Positions 18,234 through 58,439 of a stretch of DNA of 64,000 nt are shown in pieces. How positions within the stretch are numbered: the stretch's first letter is position 1; each line of letters opens with the position of its first letter. A program made the translations under genes and the position numbers. Source of the DNA: a virus; IMG/VR virus record IMGVR_UViG_3300042878_001080, positions 29,329-93,328 of that record, one strand, 5' to 3'. The notes beneath the pieces are model-generated. The model searched no databases. It saw only the letters and a program-made list of their open reading frames with translations, and had not been told where the DNA came from.

Positions 18234-18275
18234 TAACATTTACAAATAAACAGATATTTATATATAAAAAAGATT

Positions 18276-18500
18276 ATGGATACAAAATCATTATTAGAAA
18301 ATTACTTAGGTAAAAAAACCCGTACTACCGAAAAAGATATGGGTAACGGTTCAAAACAAGTATGTGATTTAGATTCAGGTGATTGTTATACAATTAGAAT
18401 GAAAGATGGTCTAATTGAAAGAGTTGATAACACTATGAGTCAAAATAGAAAAATACAAGTTGAAACTACAACAGGTGTAAAACAATTATTAAACGGATAA
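18276..18500 (+). CDS. Hypothetical protein
   Basis: 74-aa ORF behind a TATTTATA motif. Confidence 0.75.
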   Translation: MDTKSLLENYLGKKTRTTEKDMGNGSKQVCDLDSGDCYTIRMKDGLIERVDNTMSQNRKIQVETTTGVKQLLNG

Positions 18501-20219: not shown

Positions 20220-21209
20220 ATGGCGATTAAAAAGAAAACATTCTCGTTAGAGGATATAAAGGGTAAATTCTCTACAAAAACAAAATACAAACCTGAAAGC
20301 TTCTATAACTGCGGTGAAGCTTTTATGGATGCTTGTGGTTTACCCGGACCTGTAATGGGGGGTATCAATATGATGTTAGGTCATTCAAATACTTCAAAAA
20401 CAACAGCTATGATATTAGCGGCGGCTGATGCTCAGAAAAAAGGACATTTACCGGTGTTTATTATAACGGAAAAAAAATGGTCTTGGGAACACTCGGTTGA
20501 ATTGGGGTTACAAGCGGAACAAAATGAAAATGGTGAGTGGGACGGTCATTTTATTTTTAACGATTCTTTTGAAACAATAGAACAGGCGACTGATTTTATG
20601 AATGATATATTAGATGCTCAAGAAAAAGGTGAATTACCGTATAATGTTGCTTTTTTCTTTGATAGTATTGGTAGTATTCCCTGTCAAATGACTTTTGAAG
20701 GTAAGGGGGGGTCTATGCACAATGCTAGAGTACTATCAGAAAGAATAGGTATGGGGTTACATTCAAGAATAACAAAATCAAAAAAAGAGGATTATCCTTA
20801 TTACAATACTTTAGTTGTAATTGTACAACCTTGGGTTGAATTGCCGGACTCACCATTTGGTCAGCCTTCTATTAAACCTAAAGGCGGTGAGGCGTTATAT
20901 TTGGCATCTTCTTTAGTATTTTTATTTGGTAACCAAAAAAATGCTGGAGTTAATCATATAACCGCAACTAAAAATGGTAGAACCGTATCTTATGCTGTTA
21001 GAACAAAAGTATCAATATTAAAAAATCACGTAAATGGTATTGCGTTTAAGGATGGGAAAATTATTGCGGTTCCTCAAGGATATATTGCGGATACAAAAGA
21101 GGCGTTAGATAAATATAAAAAACAATATTCTAGTTATTGGGGTGCGATACTTAGTGGTACCGGTGAATTGATATTAGATGAAAATAGTGAAGACGATTCT
21201 GACGATTAA
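20220..21209 (+). CDS. recA: RecA/UvsX-like recombinase
   Basis: Variant Walker A GHSNTSKT, FIITE, Walker B FFFDSIG, KGGEAL, KNHV. Confidence 0.85.
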   Translation: MAIKKKTFSLEDIKGKFSTKTKYKPESFYNCGEAFMDACGLPGPVMGGINMMLGHSNTSKTTAMILAAADAQKKGHLPVFIITEKKWSWEHSVELGLQAEQNENGEWDGHFIFNDSFETIEQATDFMNDILDAQEKGELPYNVAFFFDSIGSIPCQMTFEGKGGSMHNARVLSERIGMGLHSRITKSKKEDYPYYNTLVVIVQPWVELPDSPFGQPSIKPKGGEALYLASSLVFLFGNQKNAGVNHITATKNGRTVSYAVRTKVSILKNHVNGIAFKDGKIIAVPQGYIADTKEALDKYKKQYSSYWGAILSGTGELILDENSEDDSDD

Positions 21210-21260
21210 AAAAATTGATACTATTACTACTTTTAAGTATTTTTAAGATATTTATATAAT

Positions 21261-21413
21261 ATGGGAAGACATAAGATTGATGAAGATAAAAAAAAGGTAA
21301 AAGTTTCGGTTGCGATTGACCCTGAATTACCTCAATACTTTAAGGATAAATCTATAAATTTATCTTCCCTTGTTAATAAATTATTAAAAGAATATATTAA
21401 AAATGGAAACTAA
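21261..21413 (+). CDS. Small ribbon-helix-helix-like protein, copy 1 (not in ORF track)
   Basis: MGRHKIDEDKKKVKVSVAIDPELPQYFKDKSINLSSLVNKLLKEYIKNGN; paralog at 56880. Confidence 0.8.
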   Translation: MGRHKIDEDKKKVKVSVAIDPELPQYFKDKSINLSSLVNKLLKEYIKNGN

Positions 21414-21963
21414 AGTTTGTAGTAAATGTAATGTTGAAAAACAAATAACCGATTTTTATAAAAAAAATAATTATTGTAAAATTTGTCATTTAGAAAAAAA
21501 ACAAAATTGGAGAAAAAATAATCCCGAAGAATATAAAAAACAAAACAAAAATTATTGGGAGAGAACTAAAGATGTTCAATCACAAAAAAAGAAAGTTTGG
21601 ATTAAAAATAATCGGGAAAAGTATAATAGTTATTGGACAAATAGAAAAAATATAGACCCAGAATTCAAACTACTAATGAATATGAGGTCTAGATTATGTG
21701 GTTATTTAAAGAAACTTAACATAACCAAAACTAACAAAACTTTTGATATTGTGGGTTGTTCTCCCCAATTTTTAAAAGAACATTTAGAAACCCAATTTAC
21801 TGATGGTATGAGTTGGGATAACAGGAGTGAGTGGCATATTGACCACATCATTCCATTATCATCGGCAAAAACAGAAGACGAACTTTATAAGTTGTGTCAT
21901 TATGAAAATCTTCAACCATTATGGGCTGAGGATAATTTGAAAAAGAGTAACAAAATTTTATAG
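21403..21963 (+). CDS. Free-standing HNH endonuclease with N-terminal Zn ribbon, copy 1
   Basis: CSKC..CKIC; WHIDHIIP...NLQPLW..DNLKK. Confidence 0.9.
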   Translation: METKVCSKCNVEKQITDFYKKNNYCKICHLEKKQNWRKNNPEEYKKQNKNYWERTKDVQSQKKKVWIKNNREKYNSYWTNRKNIDPEFKLLMNMRSRLCGYLKKLNITKTNKTFDIVGCSPQFLKEHLETQFTDGMSWDNRSEWHIDHIIPLSSAKTEDELYKLCHYENLQPLWAEDNLKKSNKIL

Positions 21964-21984: not shown

Positions 21985-22986
21985 GTGACTAAAACACTAT
22001 TAGTGGATGGAAACAATCTACTTAAGATTGGGTTTTGCGGGGTTAAAGACTTTTACCACAACGGAAAACACATAGGAGGATTATGGCATTTTATCAATAC
22101 AATTAGACGTTTTATAGACGAACAAAATTTTGATAAGGTTGTTGTTATGTGGGATGGTGATAATAATTCATCCGCCCGAAAACTTATTTACCCCCAATAT
22201 AAAGAAAAACGACGTATAACCGAAGATTTCAAAGATGAATCTTTTGAAGAACAGAAAGAGAGAATCAAACAATACTTGGAGGAATGTTATATAAGACAAA
22301 TCAACGTAGATAATAACGAAGGCGACGATTTGATTGCTTACTACTGCCAAATCTCGGAAAACGAACAAAAGACTATCTATTCGGGGGATAAAGACCTTAC
22401 CCAACTTATATCGGATAAGGTATCGGTATATTATCCAAGAACCAAAGAGACTTATCATTTAGGAAGTAAAATCAAATGTGATTTTTACGAATTTCCCCAC
22501 GAAAACATCAGGACTTATAAAATTCTATCTGGAGATAAATCGGACAATATTGACGGTATTTCAGGGTTGGGTGAGAAAACTCTTATAAAGTTTTTTCCTG
22601 AGCTACTTGAAAAAACCGTTTCTATTACCGATATTTTAGAAAAGGCTGAAATTCTACTAAAGGAAAACAAGGGTAATAAGACATTACAAAATCTTTTATC
22701 CGGAAAAACTAAAAGTGGTGTGTATGGTGATGAGTTTTTTGTTATTAACGAAAAAATTATAAATTTATCAAACCCATTAATTACTGATGGTGCTAAAGAA
22801 CTTGTTGAATTATATTATAAAGAAACCTTAGACCCTGATGGAAGGGGTCATAGGGGACTTATTAAAATGATGATGGAAGATGGGTTTTTTAAGTATCTAC
22901 CGAAGGGGGATGACGCGTGGGTTAATTTTGTTAGACCCTTTTTAAAACTAACAAGAAAAGAAAAAAGAAATTATAAAAACAATTAA
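21985..22986 (+). CDS. 5'-3' exonuclease (T4 RNase H / PolI N-terminal-like)
   Basis: LLVDGNNL, EGDDLIA, SGDKDLTQL, GDKSDNIDGISGLGEKT; GTG start. Confidence 0.92.
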   Translation: MTKTLLVDGNNLLKIGFCGVKDFYHNGKHIGGLWHFINTIRRFIDEQNFDKVVVMWDGDNNSSARKLIYPQYKEKRRITEDFKDESFEEQKERIKQYLEECYIRQINVDNNEGDDLIAYYCQISENEQKTIYSGDKDLTQLISDKVSVYYPRTKETYHLGSKIKCDFYEFPHENIRTYKILSGDKSDNIDGISGLGEKTLIKFFPELLEKTVSITDILEKAEILLKENKGNKTLQNLLSGKTKSGVYGDEFFVINEKIINLSNPLITDGAKELVELYYKETLDPDGRGHRGLIKMMMEDGFFKYLPKGDDAWVNFVRPFLKLTRKEKRNYKNN

Positions 22987-54108: not shown

Positions 54109-55620
54109 TTAAGGACAGTATAACCAATTAGTACCATTAATGTGTATGTTAAAATAAAGTGGTGAATTATCGGTTATTGTTATTGTTGCTGGATTAGTCG
54201 GACCACAGTACCCCGTGTATGTTGCGTTAACAGCTTGTCCTGGTACAACGGTACCTTGACCAATACCGAATGTGATTGAGTTTCTAACATATGTGGCTCC
54301 TTGTTCTGTGATATAAAAATTATAAGTTTCTCCCGAACATAATGAATTAATAAAGTGTGGTGTTATCACTGAAGATGTTGTGTAATGTCCAAATAATGGT
54401 GTTCCAAATAATGATGAACCACCTAAAGTACTATAACAACTAATAGGTTCTGATGATTTTTTAAAATAAATGTAAATACCATATCCTGCTGGTGGAATAA
54501 CGTTTATGTCTTTAGTTAAATAAGCATAAACTGATGGTAATTGATTAGGGAACGATGGGTTACATAAAGAACAATTAAGTTGTGTTGTACTTGGAGTCAT
54601 CGTCATAGTCATTGTTGGTGTATGTGTCGGAGTTTGTGTTGGTGTGTGACTTGGTGATGCTCCCGGTGTTCCGGTCGGTGTGTGTGTTGGAGTTCTAGTC
54701 ATTGTTGGTGTTTGGGTAGGTGTTGAAGTATGTGTTGGTGTTGGGGTTGGAACAATTGCTGATTGGCAATATATACAAGCACCGTCTTCATATGAAAAAC
54801 CGTAAGGACCAGTAGTTATGTTAATTGTGTTAATATTTCCGTGGTCATAATCCATACCAAGGTAAGATATACATCTTGTTTCGGTCACACCGTTGTTATT
54901 AACAGTTGCCCCTAAAACAATATATAAATCAAATTCAAATCCTGTTGGGGTTCCGGTTACATCAGTACAATAGTAAAAATCGCCATTATAACAATCTTGA
55001 AACTTCAATACTCCCGGACAAATAATTTGACCTGTGATTGCGGAATAACTACCAAATCCATCAATCAAACAATTTCTAGATATTAATGGTGAGTTAAAAG
55101 GTAATTTAGACCATATATTGTTTTCGTCATACATAGTTGGTGTTACTGTTGGTGTTGGTGTTGGTGTCGGAGTATATGTGTAACCACTAGCATCAATACC
55201 GATTATTGAACAATAGTTTGTTGAACTTGGTGTAACCGTAGGTGTTGGAGTTACGCTAGCACTTGGTGTCGGAGTTGGTGTTGGGATAAATTCACAATCA
55301 AAGATTGCTGTAAAATCTAAAACATCACAATTTTGAGTTGGTGTTGGTGTAGGTGTTAAACATATACCACTAAAGACATAGGATGTTGATAAGTCGGGAC
55401 AGATACTTGTGGATGGATACTTACCACTTAAATAACAAGTACCTCCAAGAATATTAGATAAACACCATTCACTAGTTGTCCCCGTTGTATGATATATAGT
55501 CCAACCACTGGTTTGACCCGTCCAATATGTGTAACCATTATAGGTACCACCTGTTATGTAGTTATCGTCGGCACCTACTATTCCGGTATTATTTACACAA
55601 TATGTTGAATTACAAGCCAT
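54109..55620 (-). CDS. Cys-rich Thr-Pro-linker virion/adhesin-like protein
   Basis: Four PT tracts separating small Cys-containing domains. Confidence 0.65.
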   Translation of the reverse strand: MACNSTYCVNNTGIVGADDNYITGGTYNGYTYWTGQTSGWTIYHTTGTTSEWCLSNILGGTCYLSGKYPSTSICPDLSTSYVFSGICLTPTPTPTQNCDVLDFTAIFDCEFIPTPTPTPSASVTPTPTVTPSSTNYCSIIGIDASGYTYTPTPTPTPTVTPTMYDENNIWSKLPFNSPLISRNCLIDGFGSYSAITGQIICPGVLKFQDCYNGDFYYCTDVTGTPTGFEFDLYIVLGATVNNNGVTETRCISYLGMDYDHGNINTINITTGPYGFSYEDGACIYCQSAIVPTPTPTHTSTPTQTPTMTRTPTHTPTGTPGASPSHTPTQTPTHTPTMTMTMTPSTTQLNCSLCNPSFPNQLPSVYAYLTKDINVIPPAGYGIYIYFKKSSEPISCYSTLGGSSLFGTPLFGHYTTSSVITPHFINSLCSGETYNFYITEQGATYVRNSITFGIGQGTVVPGQAVNATYTGYCGPTNPATITITDNSPLYFNIHINGTNWLYCP

Positions 55621-55931: not shown

Positions 55932-56831
55932 ATGTCAGACGATGCGGAAATATTATTAGAGATACTACACGAAATTTTGGGTGATGAGAAACTTCATTAC
56001 GAATCGAAGGGTCAAATATCTTTTGACTGTCCGATATGTGATGAGGACCAACACAAAGGAAATATGGAGGTAAATTATTTTGACCACGTATTTAAGTGTT
56101 GGAGTTGTGGTGATGAGAATAATACCAAAGGACCTCTTGGAAAACTTATAGATAATTTTGGTAACAAGAAACAAAAAAAAATCTACAATCTACTCCAACC
56201 TGAGAATCACAAACCAAAAGAGAAACGAGTTGATAAACTAAAACTACCTGAGGGATTCACAAAATTCAAGGATAGTAGTTTGGTTTATCCAGTTCGTCGT
56301 CAGGCGTATAACTATTTAACTCAACGAGGAATAACCGATAAGATTATTGAAAAGTATGGTATTGGGTTCTGTGATAAAGGTGCGTTCTCTGGTAGGATAA
56401 TTATACCCTCCTATGATATAAAGGATGAGTTAAACTATTTCATTGCTCGAAGTTGGGACCCAAATAGCCGAGCTAAGTACAAGAATCCGGAAGCAGCTAA
56501 AGATGAGATAATCTTCTTTGAGAGTACAATCAATTGGAATGCTGACATCCATCTTTGTGAGGGAGCGTTTGATGCTATCTTTCTACCTAATAGTATTTCT
56601 ATGTTGGGAAAACATATGTCTGAGTTATTACTTAATACACTGTATGAGAAGGCGAATGGTAATATAATTATTTGTTTGGATAGTGACGCCTTCCAAGATG
56701 CTATTAAATTATACCATAATTTAAATGGGGGTAGATTATATGGTAAAGTAAAATTAATAAAATTAACTGGTGATGCTGATGTTGCCGATTTAAGGGGAAA
56801 CATTAGTGATTACTTTTATACAATGAAATAA
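55932..56831 (+). CDS. dnaG: DNA primase
   Basis: Zn finger CPIC..CWSC; GRIIIP, KYKNP, TOPRIM CEGAFDA and CLDSDA. Confidence 0.92.
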   Translation: MSDDAEILLEILHEILGDEKLHYESKGQISFDCPICDEDQHKGNMEVNYFDHVFKCWSCGDENNTKGPLGKLIDNFGNKKQKKIYNLLQPENHKPKEKRVDKLKLPEGFTKFKDSSLVYPVRRQAYNYLTQRGITDKIIEKYGIGFCDKGAFSGRIIIPSYDIKDELNYFIARSWDPNSRAKYKNPEAAKDEIIFFESTINWNADIHLCEGAFDAIFLPNSISMLGKHMSELLLNTLYEKANGNIIICLDSDAFQDAIKLYHNLNGGRLYGKVKLIKLTGDADVADLRGNISDYFYTMK

Positions 56832-56855
56832 AGTTGTTAAAAATAACAACTTTAT
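56828..56855. repeat. Perfect 12-bp inverted repeat
   Basis: ATAAAGTTGTTA-AAAA-TAACAACTTTAT. Confidence 0.8.
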
Positions 56856-56879
56856 ATAAAACTATGATATTTATATAAT

Positions 56880-57041
56880 ATGGGAAGAAACAAAAAAAAT
56901 AACGAAGAAAAAAAACAAAGTATATCTATTGCTCTTAAACCTGAGATTTTAGAATACTACAGGAATCTTCATATTAACTTGTCTTCGTTAGTTAATAAAT
57001 TATTAGAAGATTATAAAGAAAATGGAAACAAAAGTTTGTAA
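56880..57041 (+). CDS. Small ribbon-helix-helix-like protein, copy 2 (not in ORF track)
   Basis: MGRNKKNNEEKKQSISIALKPEILEYYRNLHINLSSLVNKLLEDYKENGNKSL. Confidence 0.8.
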   Translation: MGRNKKNNEEKKQSISIALKPEILEYYRNLHINLSSLVNKLLEDYKENGNKSL

Positions 57042-57579
57042 AAAGTGTGGTGTTGAAAAATTACTTTGTGATTATAATAAAGATAAGTATTCATCTGATG
57101 GTTTGAGATACCGATGTCGGGAATGCACATCGTTAGAGTATAAAAATTTTTATTATAAAAATAGAAAAAATGAAATTCAAAGACAGGTTAATTATCAAAA
57201 AAATAATGATGAATCTGTTAAAAAAAGTAGAAATTACCGACATCAAAAAAATTATGATAATAACATTTTGTATAAATTAAAATTTAATATTAGAAATAGG
57301 GTTAAACTTTTTATTAAAAGTGTTAATTTTGATATAAAAACTAATAACACCTATAATATTGTAGGTTGTACTCCTGAAGAATTAAAAATTTATCTTGAAG
57401 GACAATTTACCGAAGGTATGTCTTGGGATAATCATAAACACACGGGGTGGCATATAGACCATATAATACCGATATCTTCAGCTAAAACAGAAGAGGATGT
57501 TTATAAATTATGTCATTATACTAATTTACAACCATTGTGGTGTAATGAGAATTATAAAAAAGGAAAAAAAATAATATGA
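57022..57579 (+). CDS. Free-standing HNH endonuclease with Zn ribbon, copy 2
   Basis: CKKC..CREC; WHIDHIIPISSAKTE...LCHYTNLQPLW. Confidence 0.9.
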   Translation: METKVCKKCGVEKLLCDYNKDKYSSDGLRYRCRECTSLEYKNFYYKNRKNEIQRQVNYQKNNDESVKKSRNYRHQKNYDNNILYKLKFNIRNRVKLFIKSVNFDIKTNNTYNIVGCTPEELKIYLEGQFTEGMSWDNHKHTGWHIDHIIPISSAKTEEDVYKLCHYTNLQPLWCNENYKKGKKII

Positions 57580-58439
57580 ATAAATTAAAAAATGTTGCAA
57601 CTGAAATATTAGATATTTTAGAAAAAAGACGACAAGAACTTGAACTTACATTTGTGGAGGACACACATACCTACACGATGAAAAACGCCAAAGGTGAATT
57701 AAAAAGTGATTGGCCTTCGGTAAGTAAAGTAATGAAGTCATTTTACACAGAATTTGATTCTGAAGGGATATCTTTAAAGAAGGCGAATGGAGACCCCGAA
57801 GTCCAACAACAATTATTGGCCGAATGGAAAGCCGCTGCCGACTATTCAATAAATGTGGGAAGTAGAACTCACTTTTTATTGGAAAAAAAATCTTTAGAGA
57901 TGTTTGAGTTGGATAAGGAAGTTAGACAACCTGAATTTGAGTGTAATTTTGAACAGATATTACGTAGTGATTCTATGGTGTCTGCCGGAACTAACTTTTT
58001 AGAAACTATGAAAGAGCGTGGAGCGTTATTGTTGGATACAGAGTTAATTCTTGGTGACTATGAGTATGGTTATACAGGTGCTCCCGATAAAATGTGGTTA
58101 ATTGAGAATAAAGATAAAACTGAGATTGGTATTATCTGTACGGATTATAAAACTAATAAACCAAAAAACTTTGAGGCGAGTTATTTTACCAAAAAAATGA
58201 AATATCCTTTCGAAAAGTTAGATGATACCGCTCTTGGACATTATTCAACACAATTACCATTTTATTGTAAGCTATTATTAAAGATGTTGAAAGGGTCTAA
58301 ATACGAAAACATTAAAGTATTTGGATGTATTATTGTTCTTGTTAAAGATAATGGAACATTTGAAGAATTTAGAATACCAAAATCAGTTCAACAAACCATA
58401 TTGGATATGGATATGAAAAAGTATTTGACTAAGAAATAA
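57576..58439 (+). CDS. PD-(D/E)XK (Cas4/RecB-like) exonuclease
   Basis: PSVS, GSRTH, TE, GAPD, DYKT, YSTQLPFY. Confidence 0.8.
   Translation: MNKLKNVATEILDILEKRRQELELTFVEDTHTYTMKNAKGELKSDWPSVSKVMKSFYTEFDSEGISLKKANGDPEVQQQLLAEWKAAADYSINVGSRTHFLLEKKSLEMFELDKEVRQPEFECNFEQILRSDSMVSAGTNFLETMKERGALLLDTELILGDYEYGYTGAPDKMWLIENKDKTEIGIICTDYKTNKPKNFEASYFTKKMKYPFEKLDDTALGHYSTQLPFYCKLLLKMLKGSKYENIKVFGCIIVLVKDNGTFEEFRIPKSVQQTILDMDMKKYLTKK

What the first reader, a model, noticed from the sequence alone, without database searches (positions are those of the whole stretch)
21247..21963. Two-gene RHH + HNH cassette present twice (also 56866-57579): candidate self-regulating mobile element
Seen: both loci start with the identical 23-mer GATATTTATATAATATGGGAAGA. 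Each then has an unannotated ~50-aa protein (alternating beta strand, then INLSSLVNKLL). The HNH ATG overlaps codon 48 of that ORF in both cases (METKVC). HNH catalytic halves are very similar while the middle helical regions diverge. Both cassettes sit between core replication genes (recA/exonuclease; primase/PD-(D/E)XK nuclease). Known: free-standing homing endonucleases occupy such sites, usually as single genes, and RHH proteins are autorepressors or antitoxins. Inference: a portable promoter-regulator-nuclease unit with retargetable specificity, or an HNH toxin-antitoxin-like pair.
Basis: partly seen in the sequence, partly recalled or inferred. Interest (0 to 1): 0.8.

Follow-up and report, generated by a model that had tools for sequence, protein, structure and literature searches.

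The report
Mobile RHH-headed homing nuclease cassettes
This freshwater jumbo-phage fragment carries several copies of a small selfish cassette, a tiny DNA-binding (ribbon-helix-helix) gene overlapping a homing-nuclease gene, that is present or absent at exactly the same spots in sister phages; the pairing is real and probably self-regulating, but it was already mentioned briefly in a 2025 paper.

Summary
Both loci carry a 50-53 aa ribbon-helix-helix (RHH) ORF whose stop overlaps the ATG of a Zn-ribbon HNH nuclease. Both follow an identical 23-mer. The 93-kb contig holds four such pairs.

The cassette is mobile. Sister phages about 90% identical in the flanks have precise empty sites: 48 of 75 at UvsX|exonuclease, and nearly all at primase|PD-(D/E)XK. 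One relative keeps a 24-nt scar. All 48 empty UvsX|exonuclease sites carry a divergent whole-gene UvsX allele.

The RHH is a real gene (dN/dS about 0.16). It is only the DNA-binding half of a CcdA-like antitoxin. Leader plus RHH form a separable head that is gained or lost as a unit. This head also precedes two other nuclease folds, NUMOD3 + TnsA-like PD-(D/E)XK and LAGLIDADG. One RHH subfamily always co-occurs with a 16-bp palindrome in its own leader.

Most of the 23-mer is a phage-wide TATTTAT expression signal plus the Met-Gly-Arg codons.

Best reading: a free-standing homing-endonuclease cassette whose RHH autoregulates a translationally coupled nuclease. A toxin-antitoxin reading is poorly supported.

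The association was noted in one paragraph of the 2025 'moraphage' paper (PMC12619734), so novelty is moderate. This scan had also flagged the same cassette in the neighbouring window of this contig.

The parts
20220..21209 (+). UvsX/RecA-like recombinase gene, left flank of cassette A. It is a whole-gene divergent allele relative to cassette-free relatives and a candidate target gene of the nuclease.
   Evidence: phrog_97 UvsX-like, E 2.4e-12. Against empty-site relatives, nucleotide identity drops from about 90% to 55-73% exactly over this gene. All 48 empty sites carry the 56% allele.
21210..21260 (+). Leader of cassette A: an A-run, ACTTTT (21229-21234), and GATATTTATATAAT (21247-21260) abutting the ATG. 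There is no Shine-Dalgarno sequence and no RNA structure.
   Evidence: Both motifs are conserved in 82 distinct leaders. TATTTAT is a phage-wide upstream signal. RNA fold z-score 0.75.
21261..21413 (+). RHH_A, a 50-aa ribbon-helix-helix protein (A-like subfamily).
   Evidence: Pfam CcdA N-terminal part, 24.2 bits against cut-off 22.4. PHROG Arc-like repressor, E 1.4e-5. dN/dS about 0.16, other frames closed.
21403..21963 (+). HNH_A, a 186-aa nuclease: N-terminal CxxC...CxxC Zn ribbon, variable helical middle, C-terminal HNH motif (H145, D147, H148, N169, N178). Its ATG lies 11 nt inside the RHH ORF.
   Evidence: phrog_1035, E 5.5e-23. Pfam HNH 20.7 bits (cut-off 21.4). Invariant columns in 33 homologues. 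AF2 residues 1-104 have pLDDT above 90.
21985..22986 (+). 5'-3' exonuclease (FEN/RNase H-like) gene, right flank of cassette A.
   Evidence: Pfam 5_3_exonuc_N, E 1.7e-29. The right junction TAG|TAACGAATAC is identical in filled and empty alleles.
55932..56831 (+). DnaG-like primase gene, left flank of cassette B.
   Evidence: phrog_47, E 6e-40. In the closest relatives its TAA abuts the ATG of the next gene.
56829..56854 (.). Palindrome TAAAGTTGTTA-AAAA-TAACAACTTTA, with 11-12-bp arms. It is a candidate RHH_B operator, or a hairpin that insulates the cassette.
   Evidence: RNA fold -11.1 kcal/mol, z -7.3. The core TTGTTA-N4-TAACAA type element is found in 9 of 9 B-like RHH leaders and 0 of 82 others.
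56832..57575 (+). Whole inserted segment of cassette B (744 bp), lying exactly between the primase stop and the ATG of the next gene.
   Evidence: Empty alleles read ...AATGAAATAA|ATGAATAAATTAAAAAATG (L248, L252, L254).
56880..57041 (+). RHH_B, a 53-aa ribbon-helix-helix protein (B-like subfamily).
   Evidence: Pfam CcdA 24.9 bits. 52% identical to RHH_A.
57022..57579 (+). HNH_B, a 185-aa nuclease. Its ATG lies 20 nt inside the RHH ORF, and its TGA overlaps the ATG of the downstream gene (ATGA).
   Evidence: phrog_1035, E 8e-18..
57576..58439 (+). PD-(D/E)XK-type exonuclease gene, right flank of cassette B.
   Evidence: phrog_298 exonuclease, E 2.6e-13.

Best explanation
Each locus is a free-standing homing-endonuclease gene cassette of a freshwater jumbo-phage lineage (about 300 kb, probable Bacteroidota host, very likely the 'moraphages'). 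It has two separable modules.

(1) A head of about 190 bp. This is a short leader carrying the phage's own expression signals (ACTTTT ... ATATTTAT directly before the ATG) plus a 50-53 aa RHH dimeric DNA-binding protein.

(2) A nuclease gene translated by coupling to the RHH, with the ATG 11-23 nt inside the RHH ORF.

Shown: the cassette is gained and lost precisely between conserved replication and recombination genes. The RHH is a selected coding gene. The head is modular.

Inferred: the nuclease cuts cassette-free alleles of co-infecting relatives. For cassette A the cut is most likely in or near the neighbouring UvsX gene, as with T4 SegA. Recombinational repair then copies in the cassette and the adjacent allele. 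The RHH binds its own leader and represses the cassette promoter. Nuclease production is therefore low, self-limiting and confined to the time when that promoter class fires. This would be the same logic as I-TevI autorepression, C proteins of restriction-modification systems and Aca repressors of anti-CRISPR operons, but carried out by a separate portable gene.
For: Mobility:
- The contig has four paralogous pairs in four different contexts.
- Copy number in complete relatives varies: HNH 3, about 8, 4 and 1; RHH 3, 5, 4 and 0.
- Site A: 48 of 75 close relatives are empty, with UvsX TAG directly followed by TAACGAATAC. L159 keeps the last 24 nt of the HNH gene as a scar.
- Site B: the closest relatives (primase 92%, next gene 96%) read TAA|ATG, which defines a 744-bp insert.
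- Identity drops from about 90% to 55-73% over exactly the UvsX gene.
- Cassette presence against UvsX allele is 12/12 versus 15/63, Fisher 7e-7.
- T4 segA sits at uvsX and targets uvsX, and free-standing endonucleases cut the neighbouring gene (PMC2988022).

The RHH is a real DNA-binding module:
- dN/dS about 0.16 over 42 distinct sequences, with the other frames closed.
- Pfam CcdA above cut-off, but only profile positions 1-37 of 71. PHROG Arc-like repressor.
- PDB profile nearest to the CcdA N-terminus and SSV ORF56B.
- The AF2 model shows an extended N-terminus plus two helices.

Regulator rather than partner of one enzyme:
- Leader and RHH are gained or lost together. HNH-only variants have neither, and their ATG sits 3-5 nt after the UvsX stop.
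- L098 has an HNH 96% identical to HNH_A but no head. The junction lies in an (A)TTAAAAA direct repeat.
- The same head, with the same overlap, precedes an HNH, a Zn-ribbon + NUMOD3 + TnsA-like PD-(D/E)XK nuclease, and a LAGLIDADG nuclease.
- B-like RHHs always have a 16-bp palindrome ending at the ACTTT element, 9/9 versus 0/82. The half-sites change in concert with the beta-strand: QSISIA with TTGTTA/TAACAA, and TKVSVA with TTGTGA/TCACAC.
- The overlap frame is conserved in all loci.
Against: - No binding, transcription or cleavage data exist, so every functional step is inferred.
- A-like leaders, including cassette A, show no dyad symmetry above chance (mean arm 4.7 against 4.9 in shuffles). 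No operator can be named for them.
- The conserved leader motifs are phage-wide signals. TATTTAT lies upstream of 23 of 72 genes, including a gp25-like baseplate gene at the same -11 spacing. Leader conservation therefore does not by itself show RHH binding.
- The palindrome pattern was defined after seeing the B-type leaders. Leader and RHH are tightly linked, so common descent could give the 9/9 association.
- The palindrome could instead be an RNA hairpin (-11.1 kcal/mol).
- HNH-only cassettes persist, so the RHH is not required in cis.
- The UvsX-allele association is not corrected for phylogeny. The cleavage site is unknown.
Confidence: 0.58

Rival explanations
1. Toxin-antitoxin-like or immunity pair. 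The RHH protein neutralises the nuclease by direct binding. Alternatively it is an antitoxin mimic that benefits the phage against host TA defences and hitch-hikes with, or pays for, the selfish nuclease. The second idea is the alternative offered in PMC12619734.
For: Best family hits are antitoxins: CcdA, and BrnA weakly. JGI names the family 'post-segregation antitoxin'. The upstream-small-gene, overlapping-downstream-gene layout resembles type II TA operons. The published paragraph raises this option.
Against: - Only the DNA-binding RHH half is present (CcdA profile 1-37 of 71). There is no C-terminal toxin-binding segment in 50-53 aa.
- NCBIfam CcdA equivalog scores 16.5 bits against a cut-off of 100.
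- The same head precedes three unrelated nuclease folds. This is hard to reconcile with specific protein-protein neutralisation.
- HNH genes 96% identical persist without any head, and 14 of 75 site-A loci are HNH-only or split HNH without a head.
- There are no PADLOC matches.
- One complete relative has no RHH at all, so the RHH gives no general benefit needed by the phage.
Confidence: 0.1
2. The RHH is a DNA-targeting or accessory subunit. It binds at or near the homing site and recruits or positions the nuclease, giving a two-component homing endonuclease.
For: Translational coupling gives co-production. RHH proteins are sequence-specific DNA binders. The N-terminal Zn ribbon (MET.C..C) is shared by the HNH and NUMOD3/PD-(D/E)XK partners and could be a docking point.
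Against: - The RHH is much more conserved (median 74%) than the nuclease middle region (30%), and is nearly identical among cassettes at different sites. It therefore cannot carry site specificity for different targets.
- The LAGLIDADG partner has no such Zn ribbon.
- The nucleases have their own DNA-binding modules (NUMOD3, Zn ribbon, helical repeats).
- HNH-only cassettes occupy the same site.
Confidence: 0.1
3. The nucleases are domesticated phage enzymes, for example for host DNA degradation, recombination or packaging. The RHH is an ordinary late-gene regulator, and the presence/absence pattern is plain accessory-gene flux rather than homing.
For: Phage HNH proteins often serve packaging or other roles (known from the literature, e.g. 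PMC5304195 abstract). The cassettes lie among replication and recombination genes. The leader uses general phage signals.
Against: - Insertions are precise to the base between stop and start codons and preserve coupling.
- Paralogues are multiple and copy number is variable, from 0-1 to about 8 per genome.
- Degraded copies, a scar and an IS insertion are seen.
- The neighbouring gene allele is sharply replaced.
- NUMOD3 and LAGLIDADG partners are hallmark homing-endonuclease modules.
Confidence: 0.07

Closest known systems
CcdA/HicB-like antitoxin + 'Pac-I-like' putative homing endonuclease association in moraphages (Perez-Hernandez et al., Arch Virol 2025, PMC12619734)
   Same: Almost certainly the same module. 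The features match: aquatic jumbo phages of about 300 kb, predicted Bacteroidota hosts, multiple copies per genome, a CcdA-like small protein next to an HNH-type nuclease, and a regulatory hypothesis citing I-TevI. Relatives of this contig are 308-322 kb, and three of four encode DnaK, as described for moraphages.
   Different: The paper gives one paragraph, with no anatomy and no test. Not in it: empty sites and scars, the overlap and coupling, the leader, loss and gain of the head alone, pairing with NUMOD3/PD-(D/E)XK and LAGLIDADG nucleases, the linked UvsX allele, and the palindrome/RHH-subtype link. I could not compare sequences with the paper's genomes directly, so lineage identity is inferred.
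Free-standing homing endonuclease genes of T4-like phages (seg and mob genes, e.g. segA at uvsX, mobE at nrdA/nrdB)
   Same: Both are intergenic insertions between conserved DNA-metabolism genes. Both show presence/absence among relatives. In both, the target lies in the neighbouring gene with co-conversion of flanking markers, and expression is restricted and down-regulated. The T4 facts are from PMC2988022. The same post-uvsX hotspot is used here.
   Different: T4 seg and mob genes are single genes. They are controlled by read-through, terminators and RNA hairpins that hide the RBS. Here a separate RHH gene and its own promoter-like leader precede the nuclease, and there is no Shine-Dalgarno sequence.
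I-TevI transcriptional autorepression (Edgell et al. 2004, as summarised in PMC2988022)
   Same: The proposed logic is the same: a homing endonuclease locus represses its own late or middle promoter through an operator that overlaps it.
   Different: In I-TevI the nuclease itself is the repressor. Here the function would be delegated to a separate 50-aa RHH protein shared by different nuclease folds. This is untested.
Controller (C) proteins of restriction-modification systems and Aca repressors of anti-CRISPR operons
   Same: In each case a small dimeric DNA-binding protein is encoded in the same operon as a potentially harmful or strongly expressed payload. It is often overlapping or coupled and autoregulates the operon promoter. 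This comparison rests on my own knowledge plus the Aca2 abstract, PMC8434428.
   Different: C and Aca proteins are HTH proteins. C proteins sit in R-M operons with a methyltransferase. Here the protein has an RHH fold, the payload is a homing nuclease, and the unit is a mobile cassette inside a lytic phage genome.
Type II antitoxins with RHH DNA-binding domains (CcdA, ParD, RelB, FitA, BrnA)
   Same: The N-terminal beta-alpha-alpha DNA-binding domain is homologous by Pfam. These domains autorepress their operons.
   Different: There is no toxin-binding C-terminal region and no cognate toxin family. The downstream gene is a 185-300 aa nuclease of varying fold.

Membership tests
HNH (beta-beta-alpha-Me) nucleases | Catalytic motif: His general base in a (D)H context, a structural Asn, and a metal-ligand Asn or His, within about 35 residues. 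| tested here: met
   H145, D147, H148, N169 and N178 are invariant in 33 homologues. phrog_1035, E 5.5e-23. Pfam HNH scores 20.7 bits, just under the 21.4 cut-off, for HNH_A and gives no hit for HNH_B. The AF2 model of this part is poor (pLDDT 34-65), so the fold itself was not confirmed.
Free-standing homing endonuclease genes | Precise presence/absence at an orthologous intergenic site in otherwise similar genomes. | tested here: met
   Site A: 48 of 75 relatives empty. Site B: nearly all relatives empty, with base-exact junctions.
Free-standing homing endonuclease genes | Multiple paralogous or decaying copies, and modular nuclease plus DNA-binding architecture. | tested here: met
   Four copies in the contig, and 1 to about 8 in complete relatives, some with stops or split. 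Scar in L159. Zn ribbon, variable helical middle, and NUMOD3 in a sister class.
Free-standing homing endonuclease genes | Site-specific cleavage of the cassette-free allele, and unidirectional gene conversion in mixed infection. | not testable with these tools
   Only indirect evidence: a whole-gene UvsX allele replacement linked to cassette presence.
Ribbon-helix-helix (MetJ/Arc/CopG) DNA-binding proteins | A module of about 45 aa: N-terminal beta-strand with alternating polar/hydrophobic residues, then two helices. Sequence match to an RHH family. | tested here: met
   Pfam CcdA N-terminal part, 24.2 and 24.9 bits against cut-off 22.4. PHROG Arc-like repressor. The model has residues 1-21 extended and helices at 22-29 and 36-48, but mean pLDDT is only 64.
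Ribbon-helix-helix (MetJ/Arc/CopG) DNA-binding proteins | Dimerisation, and binding to a repeated or palindromic operator. | tested here: inconclusive
   The 16-bp palindrome is exclusive to B-like RHH leaders, 9/9 versus 0/82. No dyad above chance in A-like leaders.
Type II toxin-antitoxin system (CcdAB type) | The antitoxin carries a toxin-binding region in addition to the DNA-binding domain. | tested here: not met
   The match covers CcdA profile positions 1-37 of 71 only, and the protein ends at residue 50-53. NCBIfam CcdA equivalog scores 16.5 bits against a cut-off of 100.
Type II toxin-antitoxin system (CcdAB type) | A cognate toxin of a known toxin family lies downstream. | tested here: not met
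   The downstream genes are HNH, NUMOD3 + TnsA-like, or LAGLIDADG nucleases. No PADLOC hit.
C-protein-controlled restriction-modification system | An HTH controller, a restriction endonuclease and a cognate methyltransferase in one unit. | tested here: not met
   The controller is RHH, not HTH. Cassettes A and B carry no methyltransferase. Methyltransferases lie next to some sister cassettes (L206, L308) but are separate conserved genes.

The most novel reading that the evidence does not exclude
The RHH head is a lineage-wide, trans-acting controller for homing nucleases. RHHs and leaders are far more conserved than the nucleases, and they head at least three nuclease folds. One phage's RHH pool could therefore set the expression of all its cassettes. 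In mixed infection it could also silence the RHH-headed nucleases of a competitor. That would make it a portable 'anti-homing immunity' or arbitration module, not merely a cis autorepressor. RHH subfamilies (A-, B- and C/D-like, with matching leader elements) would then be incompatibility or specificity groups.
Probability: 0.12. Interest if true: 0.75.

Novelty: new variant of a known kind. Interest (0 to 1): 0.48.

Why it matters
Homing endonuclease genes shape phage genome mosaicism, yet how phages keep these nucleases harmless is known in detail for only a few T4 enzymes. A small, portable promoter-plus-repressor head that can be bolted onto HNH, PD-(D/E)XK or LAGLIDADG nucleases would be a new, general solution to that problem.

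It would also explain why 'antitoxin' genes are so abundant in these jumbo phages without invoking counter-defence.

The system is directly testable with very small parts: a 50-aa protein, a 50-bp leader, and natural filled, empty and head-less alleles. The linked UvsX allele replacement gives a natural example of nuclease-bounded gene exchange in an uncultured phage lineage.

The bare association is already in print, which limits the surprise.

Tried and rejected
- A general dyad-symmetric operator or hairpin around ACTTTT in all leaders: rejected. The best inverted-repeat arm averages 4.7 against 4.9 in shuffles. Only B-type leaders have it.
- A sigma-70-type promoter for the cassette: consensus hits are not above shuffles, and the best TATAAT abuts the ATG, which would put the start inside the ORF.
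- The 23-mer as a cassette-specific signal: rejected. TATTTAT lies upstream of 23 of 72 genes, and the same -11/-12 spacing is seen before a gp25-like baseplate gene and others.
- Fold search for the nuclease: no PDB match at E <= 0.001. The PDB profile gives only a weak Zn-ribbon likeness to Hpy99I, E 0.29.
- The RHH AF2 model was too weak (pLDDT 64) to justify a fold search.
- Cultured phages: no nucleotide match to the locus. HNH homologues reach at most 44% identity (Flavobacterium Elemovirus and others) and have no upstream RHH. There is no RHH hit by tblastn.
- Bacterial genomes: one hit only, a 2-kb contig in a Lac Pavin MAG, probably phage DNA. A first attempt with the alignment failed for lack of a conserved block.
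- Defence-system libraries: no hit.
- The 54-55-aa ORF that occupies the primase|PD-(D/E)XK site in other relatives looked like a possible solo RHH. It is unrelated.
- Programmed frameshift fusing RHH to HNH: considered. The nuclease frame is +1 relative to the RHH, every nuclease has its own ATG, and no fused forms were seen in about 300 loci. I did not run the 'longer' protein search, so fused forms elsewhere are not excluded.
Full report
**What is there.** The window is bases 29329-93328 of a 93-kb IMG/VR viral contig with 31% G+C. CheckV rates it 32% complete. At both reported loci a 50-53 aa ORF (21261-21413; 56880-57041) is followed by a 185-186 aa ORF (21403-21963; 57022-57579). The second ORF's ATG lies 11 or 20 nt inside the first. 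The 23-mer is exact at both sites, with none expected by chance. The small proteins are 52% identical and the nucleases 46% identical.

The small protein matches the N-terminal DNA-binding part of CcdA above Pfam's cut-off, and a PHROG 'Arc-like repressor' family. The larger protein matches phrog_1035 (labelled 'endonuclease VII') and, at the borderline, Pfam HNH. The contig upstream of the window holds two more pairs, so there are four. All four have the same upstream signature and the same overlap.

**Is the pairing general?** A scan of viral contigs with the HNH alignment gave more than 470 relatives. Of the best 80, 66 have an RHH ORF directly upstream, with profile E-values of 5e-15 or better. 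It is always in the same relative frame, with overlaps of 11 nt (39 loci), 20 nt (22) or 23 nt (2). The reverse scan with the RHH found an HNH directly downstream in 67 of 80 loci.

The RHH ORF is under purifying selection. Median dN/dS is about 0.16 over 42 distinct sequences, and both other frames are closed in all of them. It is already called as a gene in public metagenome annotations: 208 clusters, with the JGI name 'post-segregation antitoxin (ccd killing protein)'.

**Mobility.** I searched with the flanking genes rather than with the cassette.

- *Site A.* Among 75 informative relatives found through the exonuclease gene (88-98% identical), 48 have no cassette. In these, the UvsX stop TAG is followed at once by TAACGAATAC..., the same bases that follow the HNH stop in the window. 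Thirteen have RHH+HNH, 11 have HNH only, and 3 have a split HNH. L159 is an empty site that keeps the last 24 nt of the HNH gene as a deletion scar.
- *Site B.* Nearly all relatives have the primase stop abutting the next gene's ATG. This includes the closest ones (primase 92%, next gene 96%). The junction defines an insert of exactly 744 bp, window 56832-57575.
- *Copy number.* Four complete relatives of 308-322 kb carry 3, about 8, 4 and 1 HNH copies, and 3, 5, 4 and 0 RHH copies. Some copies are broken.
- *Reverse polymorphism.* One relative has an HNH at a site that is empty in this contig (L052).

**Linked allele replacement.** Against empty-site relatives, nucleotide identity is about 90% on both sides but falls to 55-73% over exactly the UvsX gene. 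All 12 loci with the window-like UvsX allele carry a cassette. Of those with the 56% allele, 15 of 63 do (Fisher 7e-7, not corrected for phylogeny).

In T4 the free-standing endonuclease SegA sits at uvsX and targets uvsX. Free-standing enzymes generally cut the neighbouring gene and co-convert flanking markers (PMC2988022). Nuclease genes at boundaries of exchange are a described pattern (PMC10448857). The inference that HNH_A targets the other UvsX allele is therefore reasonable but untested.

**Anatomy of the nuclease.** Thirty-three diverse homologues share three parts:

- an invariant CxxC...CxxC ribbon;
- a hypervariable helical middle, 61-136 aa long with median identity 30%, containing ~15-aa N.PE...K.W-like repeats;
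- a conserved catalytic tail, median identity 76%, with H145, D147, H148, N169 and N178 invariant.

AlphaFold models the ribbon and four long helices with pLDDT above 90, but models the catalytic tail poorly. No solved structure matched. At site A the last ~250 nt of the gene are about 95% identical among cassettes whose middles are only 55-65% identical. The genes are therefore mosaics. Whether the middle sets target specificity was not tested.

**The head is a separable module.** HNH-only variants lack both the leader and the RHH. Their ATG sits 3-5 nt after the UvsX stop. L098 has an HNH 96% identical to HNH_A and the same UvsX allele, but no head. Its junction lies in the direct repeat (A)TTAAAAA, which is present both at the UvsX stop and at the RHH 3' end.

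The same head also precedes other nucleases, with the same leader motifs and the same overlapping start:

- a Zn-ribbon + NUMOD3 + TnsA-like PD-(D/E)XK nuclease of about 300 aa (L206-208, L219, L220, L222);
- a 259-aa LAGLIDADG nuclease (L308, L309);
- remnants of a deleted or IS607-disrupted nuclease (L211, L223 and others).

A 50-aa protein that consists only of an RHH domain, that travels with a promoter-like leader, and that heads three unrelated nuclease folds is better explained as a DNA-binding regulator than as a specific protein inhibitor or specificity subunit.

**The leader.** Eighty-two distinct leaders share three features: an A-run after the upstream stop, ACTTTT, and (G)ATATTTAT 4-6 nt before the ATG. 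None has a Shine-Dalgarno sequence.

Following a note from this scan (e1-6034455), I checked TATTTAT across the contig. It lies upstream of 23 of 72 genes. Spacing is -18 to -26 for structural genes and -11/-12 for the four RHH genes and three others, one of them a gp25-like baseplate gene. The 23-mer is thus mostly a general phage expression signal plus the MGR codons. The short spacing suggests a leaderless or near-leaderless mRNA, which is inference only. Sigma-70-type scans were uninformative.

Dyad symmetry is not general. However, the B-like RHH subfamily, to which cassette B belongs, always has a 16-bp palindrome ending at the ACTTT element. It is present in 9 of 9 distinct leader+RHH pairs against 0 of 82 others. 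The half-sites change together with the RHH beta-strand. In the window this element is 56829-56854, which also folds as a strong hairpin. This is the best, though post hoc and linkage-confounded, hint of an RHH operator.

**Lineage and prior knowledge.** Cultured phages have only distant HNH homologues, the best being Flavobacterium phages at 38-44% identity. These have no RHH. Among 185,579 species genomes, one 2-kb MAG contig matched. Relatives are 308-322 kb, and three of four encode DnaK.

This fits the 'moraphages' of Perez-Hernandez et al. 2025 (PMC12619734). [quoted passage not shown] It proposes either regulation, citing I-TevI, or a compensating benefit. The association and the main hypothesis are therefore already in print. 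The anatomy, the empty sites, the modular head, the other nuclease partners and the UvsX linkage are not.

**Verdict.** The loci are genuine mobile free-standing homing-nuclease cassettes (about 0.9). The RHH as a cis/trans transcriptional autoregulator of a translationally coupled nuclease is the best-supported mechanism (about 0.55-0.6), but it is wholly inferential. The toxin-antitoxin reading fails two defining tests. Interest is moderate: this is a neat, very testable variant of homing-endonuclease regulation, partly anticipated in the literature.

Noticed in passing
window 20220-21209 vs L104-L167: The UvsX-like gene exists as two whole-gene alleles that are about 56% identical in protein, set in genomes otherwise about 90% identical. 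The exchange boundaries fall at the gene borders. This looks like nuclease-bounded allele replacement.
   Followed up: partly
L159:1790-1885 (empty UvsX|exonuclease site): A cassette-free relative retains the last 24 nt of the HNH gene (AAAAAGAGTAACAAAATATTATAG) after a UvsX stop. It is a deletion scar apparently formed at the microhomology GA(A/G)GATAATT.
   Followed up: partly
L206:2643-3536, L219:2643-3554: This is a second nuclease class behind the same RHH head, at the same post-UvsX hotspot in more distant relatives. It has a Zn ribbon, a NUMOD3 motif and a TnsA-like PD-(D/E)XK domain, and is followed by a C5 cytosine methyltransferase.
   Followed up: yes
L308:1617-2541 (-), L309:1578-2502 (-): This is a third nuclease class behind an RHH head: a free-standing 259-aa LAGLIDADG endonuclease. 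It lies upstream of a D12-class adenine methyltransferase and next to a DnaJ-like Cys-rich gene.
   Followed up: yes
L211:379-2457, L236:2703-4781: The C5 methyltransferase downstream of the post-UvsX hotspot is interrupted by an intein with a LAGLIDADG domain. In these loci the RHH head is followed only by a METKID remnant of the lost nuclease.
   Followed up: partly
L223:2643-3668: An RHH-headed nuclease gene is truncated to 107 aa. It is followed by an IS607-like MerR-HTH + serine recombinase gene, so an insertion sequence has landed in a homing cassette.
   Followed up: partly
primase|PD-(D/E)XK junction in L253, L257, L260, L264-L277: The site of cassette B is a hotspot. Other relatives carry unrelated small ORFs there instead: a conserved 54-55 aa protein starting MSNT(I/V)SF, and ORFs of 111-150 aa sharing a FIPYEQAL...ELECLKKLIEIVK pattern in up to three tandem copies.
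   Followed up: partly
window 3239-56875 (many sites); contig-wide: TATTTAT(A) is a phage-wide upstream signal. It lies about 18-26 nt before structural genes and 11-12 nt before seven genes, including the four RHH genes and a gp25-like gene (window 28313). A second recurring motif, AAC(A/T)TTTAC, lies about 22-40 nt before several other genes. Both are probably phage-specific promoter classes.
   Followed up: partly
window 18252-18497: A 74-aa ORF with no family match has the same composite leader as the cassettes (ACATTTAC-N12-GATATTTATATA) but a 12-nt spacer before its ATG. It is variably present in relatives.
   Followed up: no
window 54109-55620 (-): A 503-aa protein has long Thr-Pro repeat tracts between Cys-containing modules (mucin-like), next to the primase region. 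Earlier notes of this scan describe similar proteins elsewhere in the contig.
   Followed up: no
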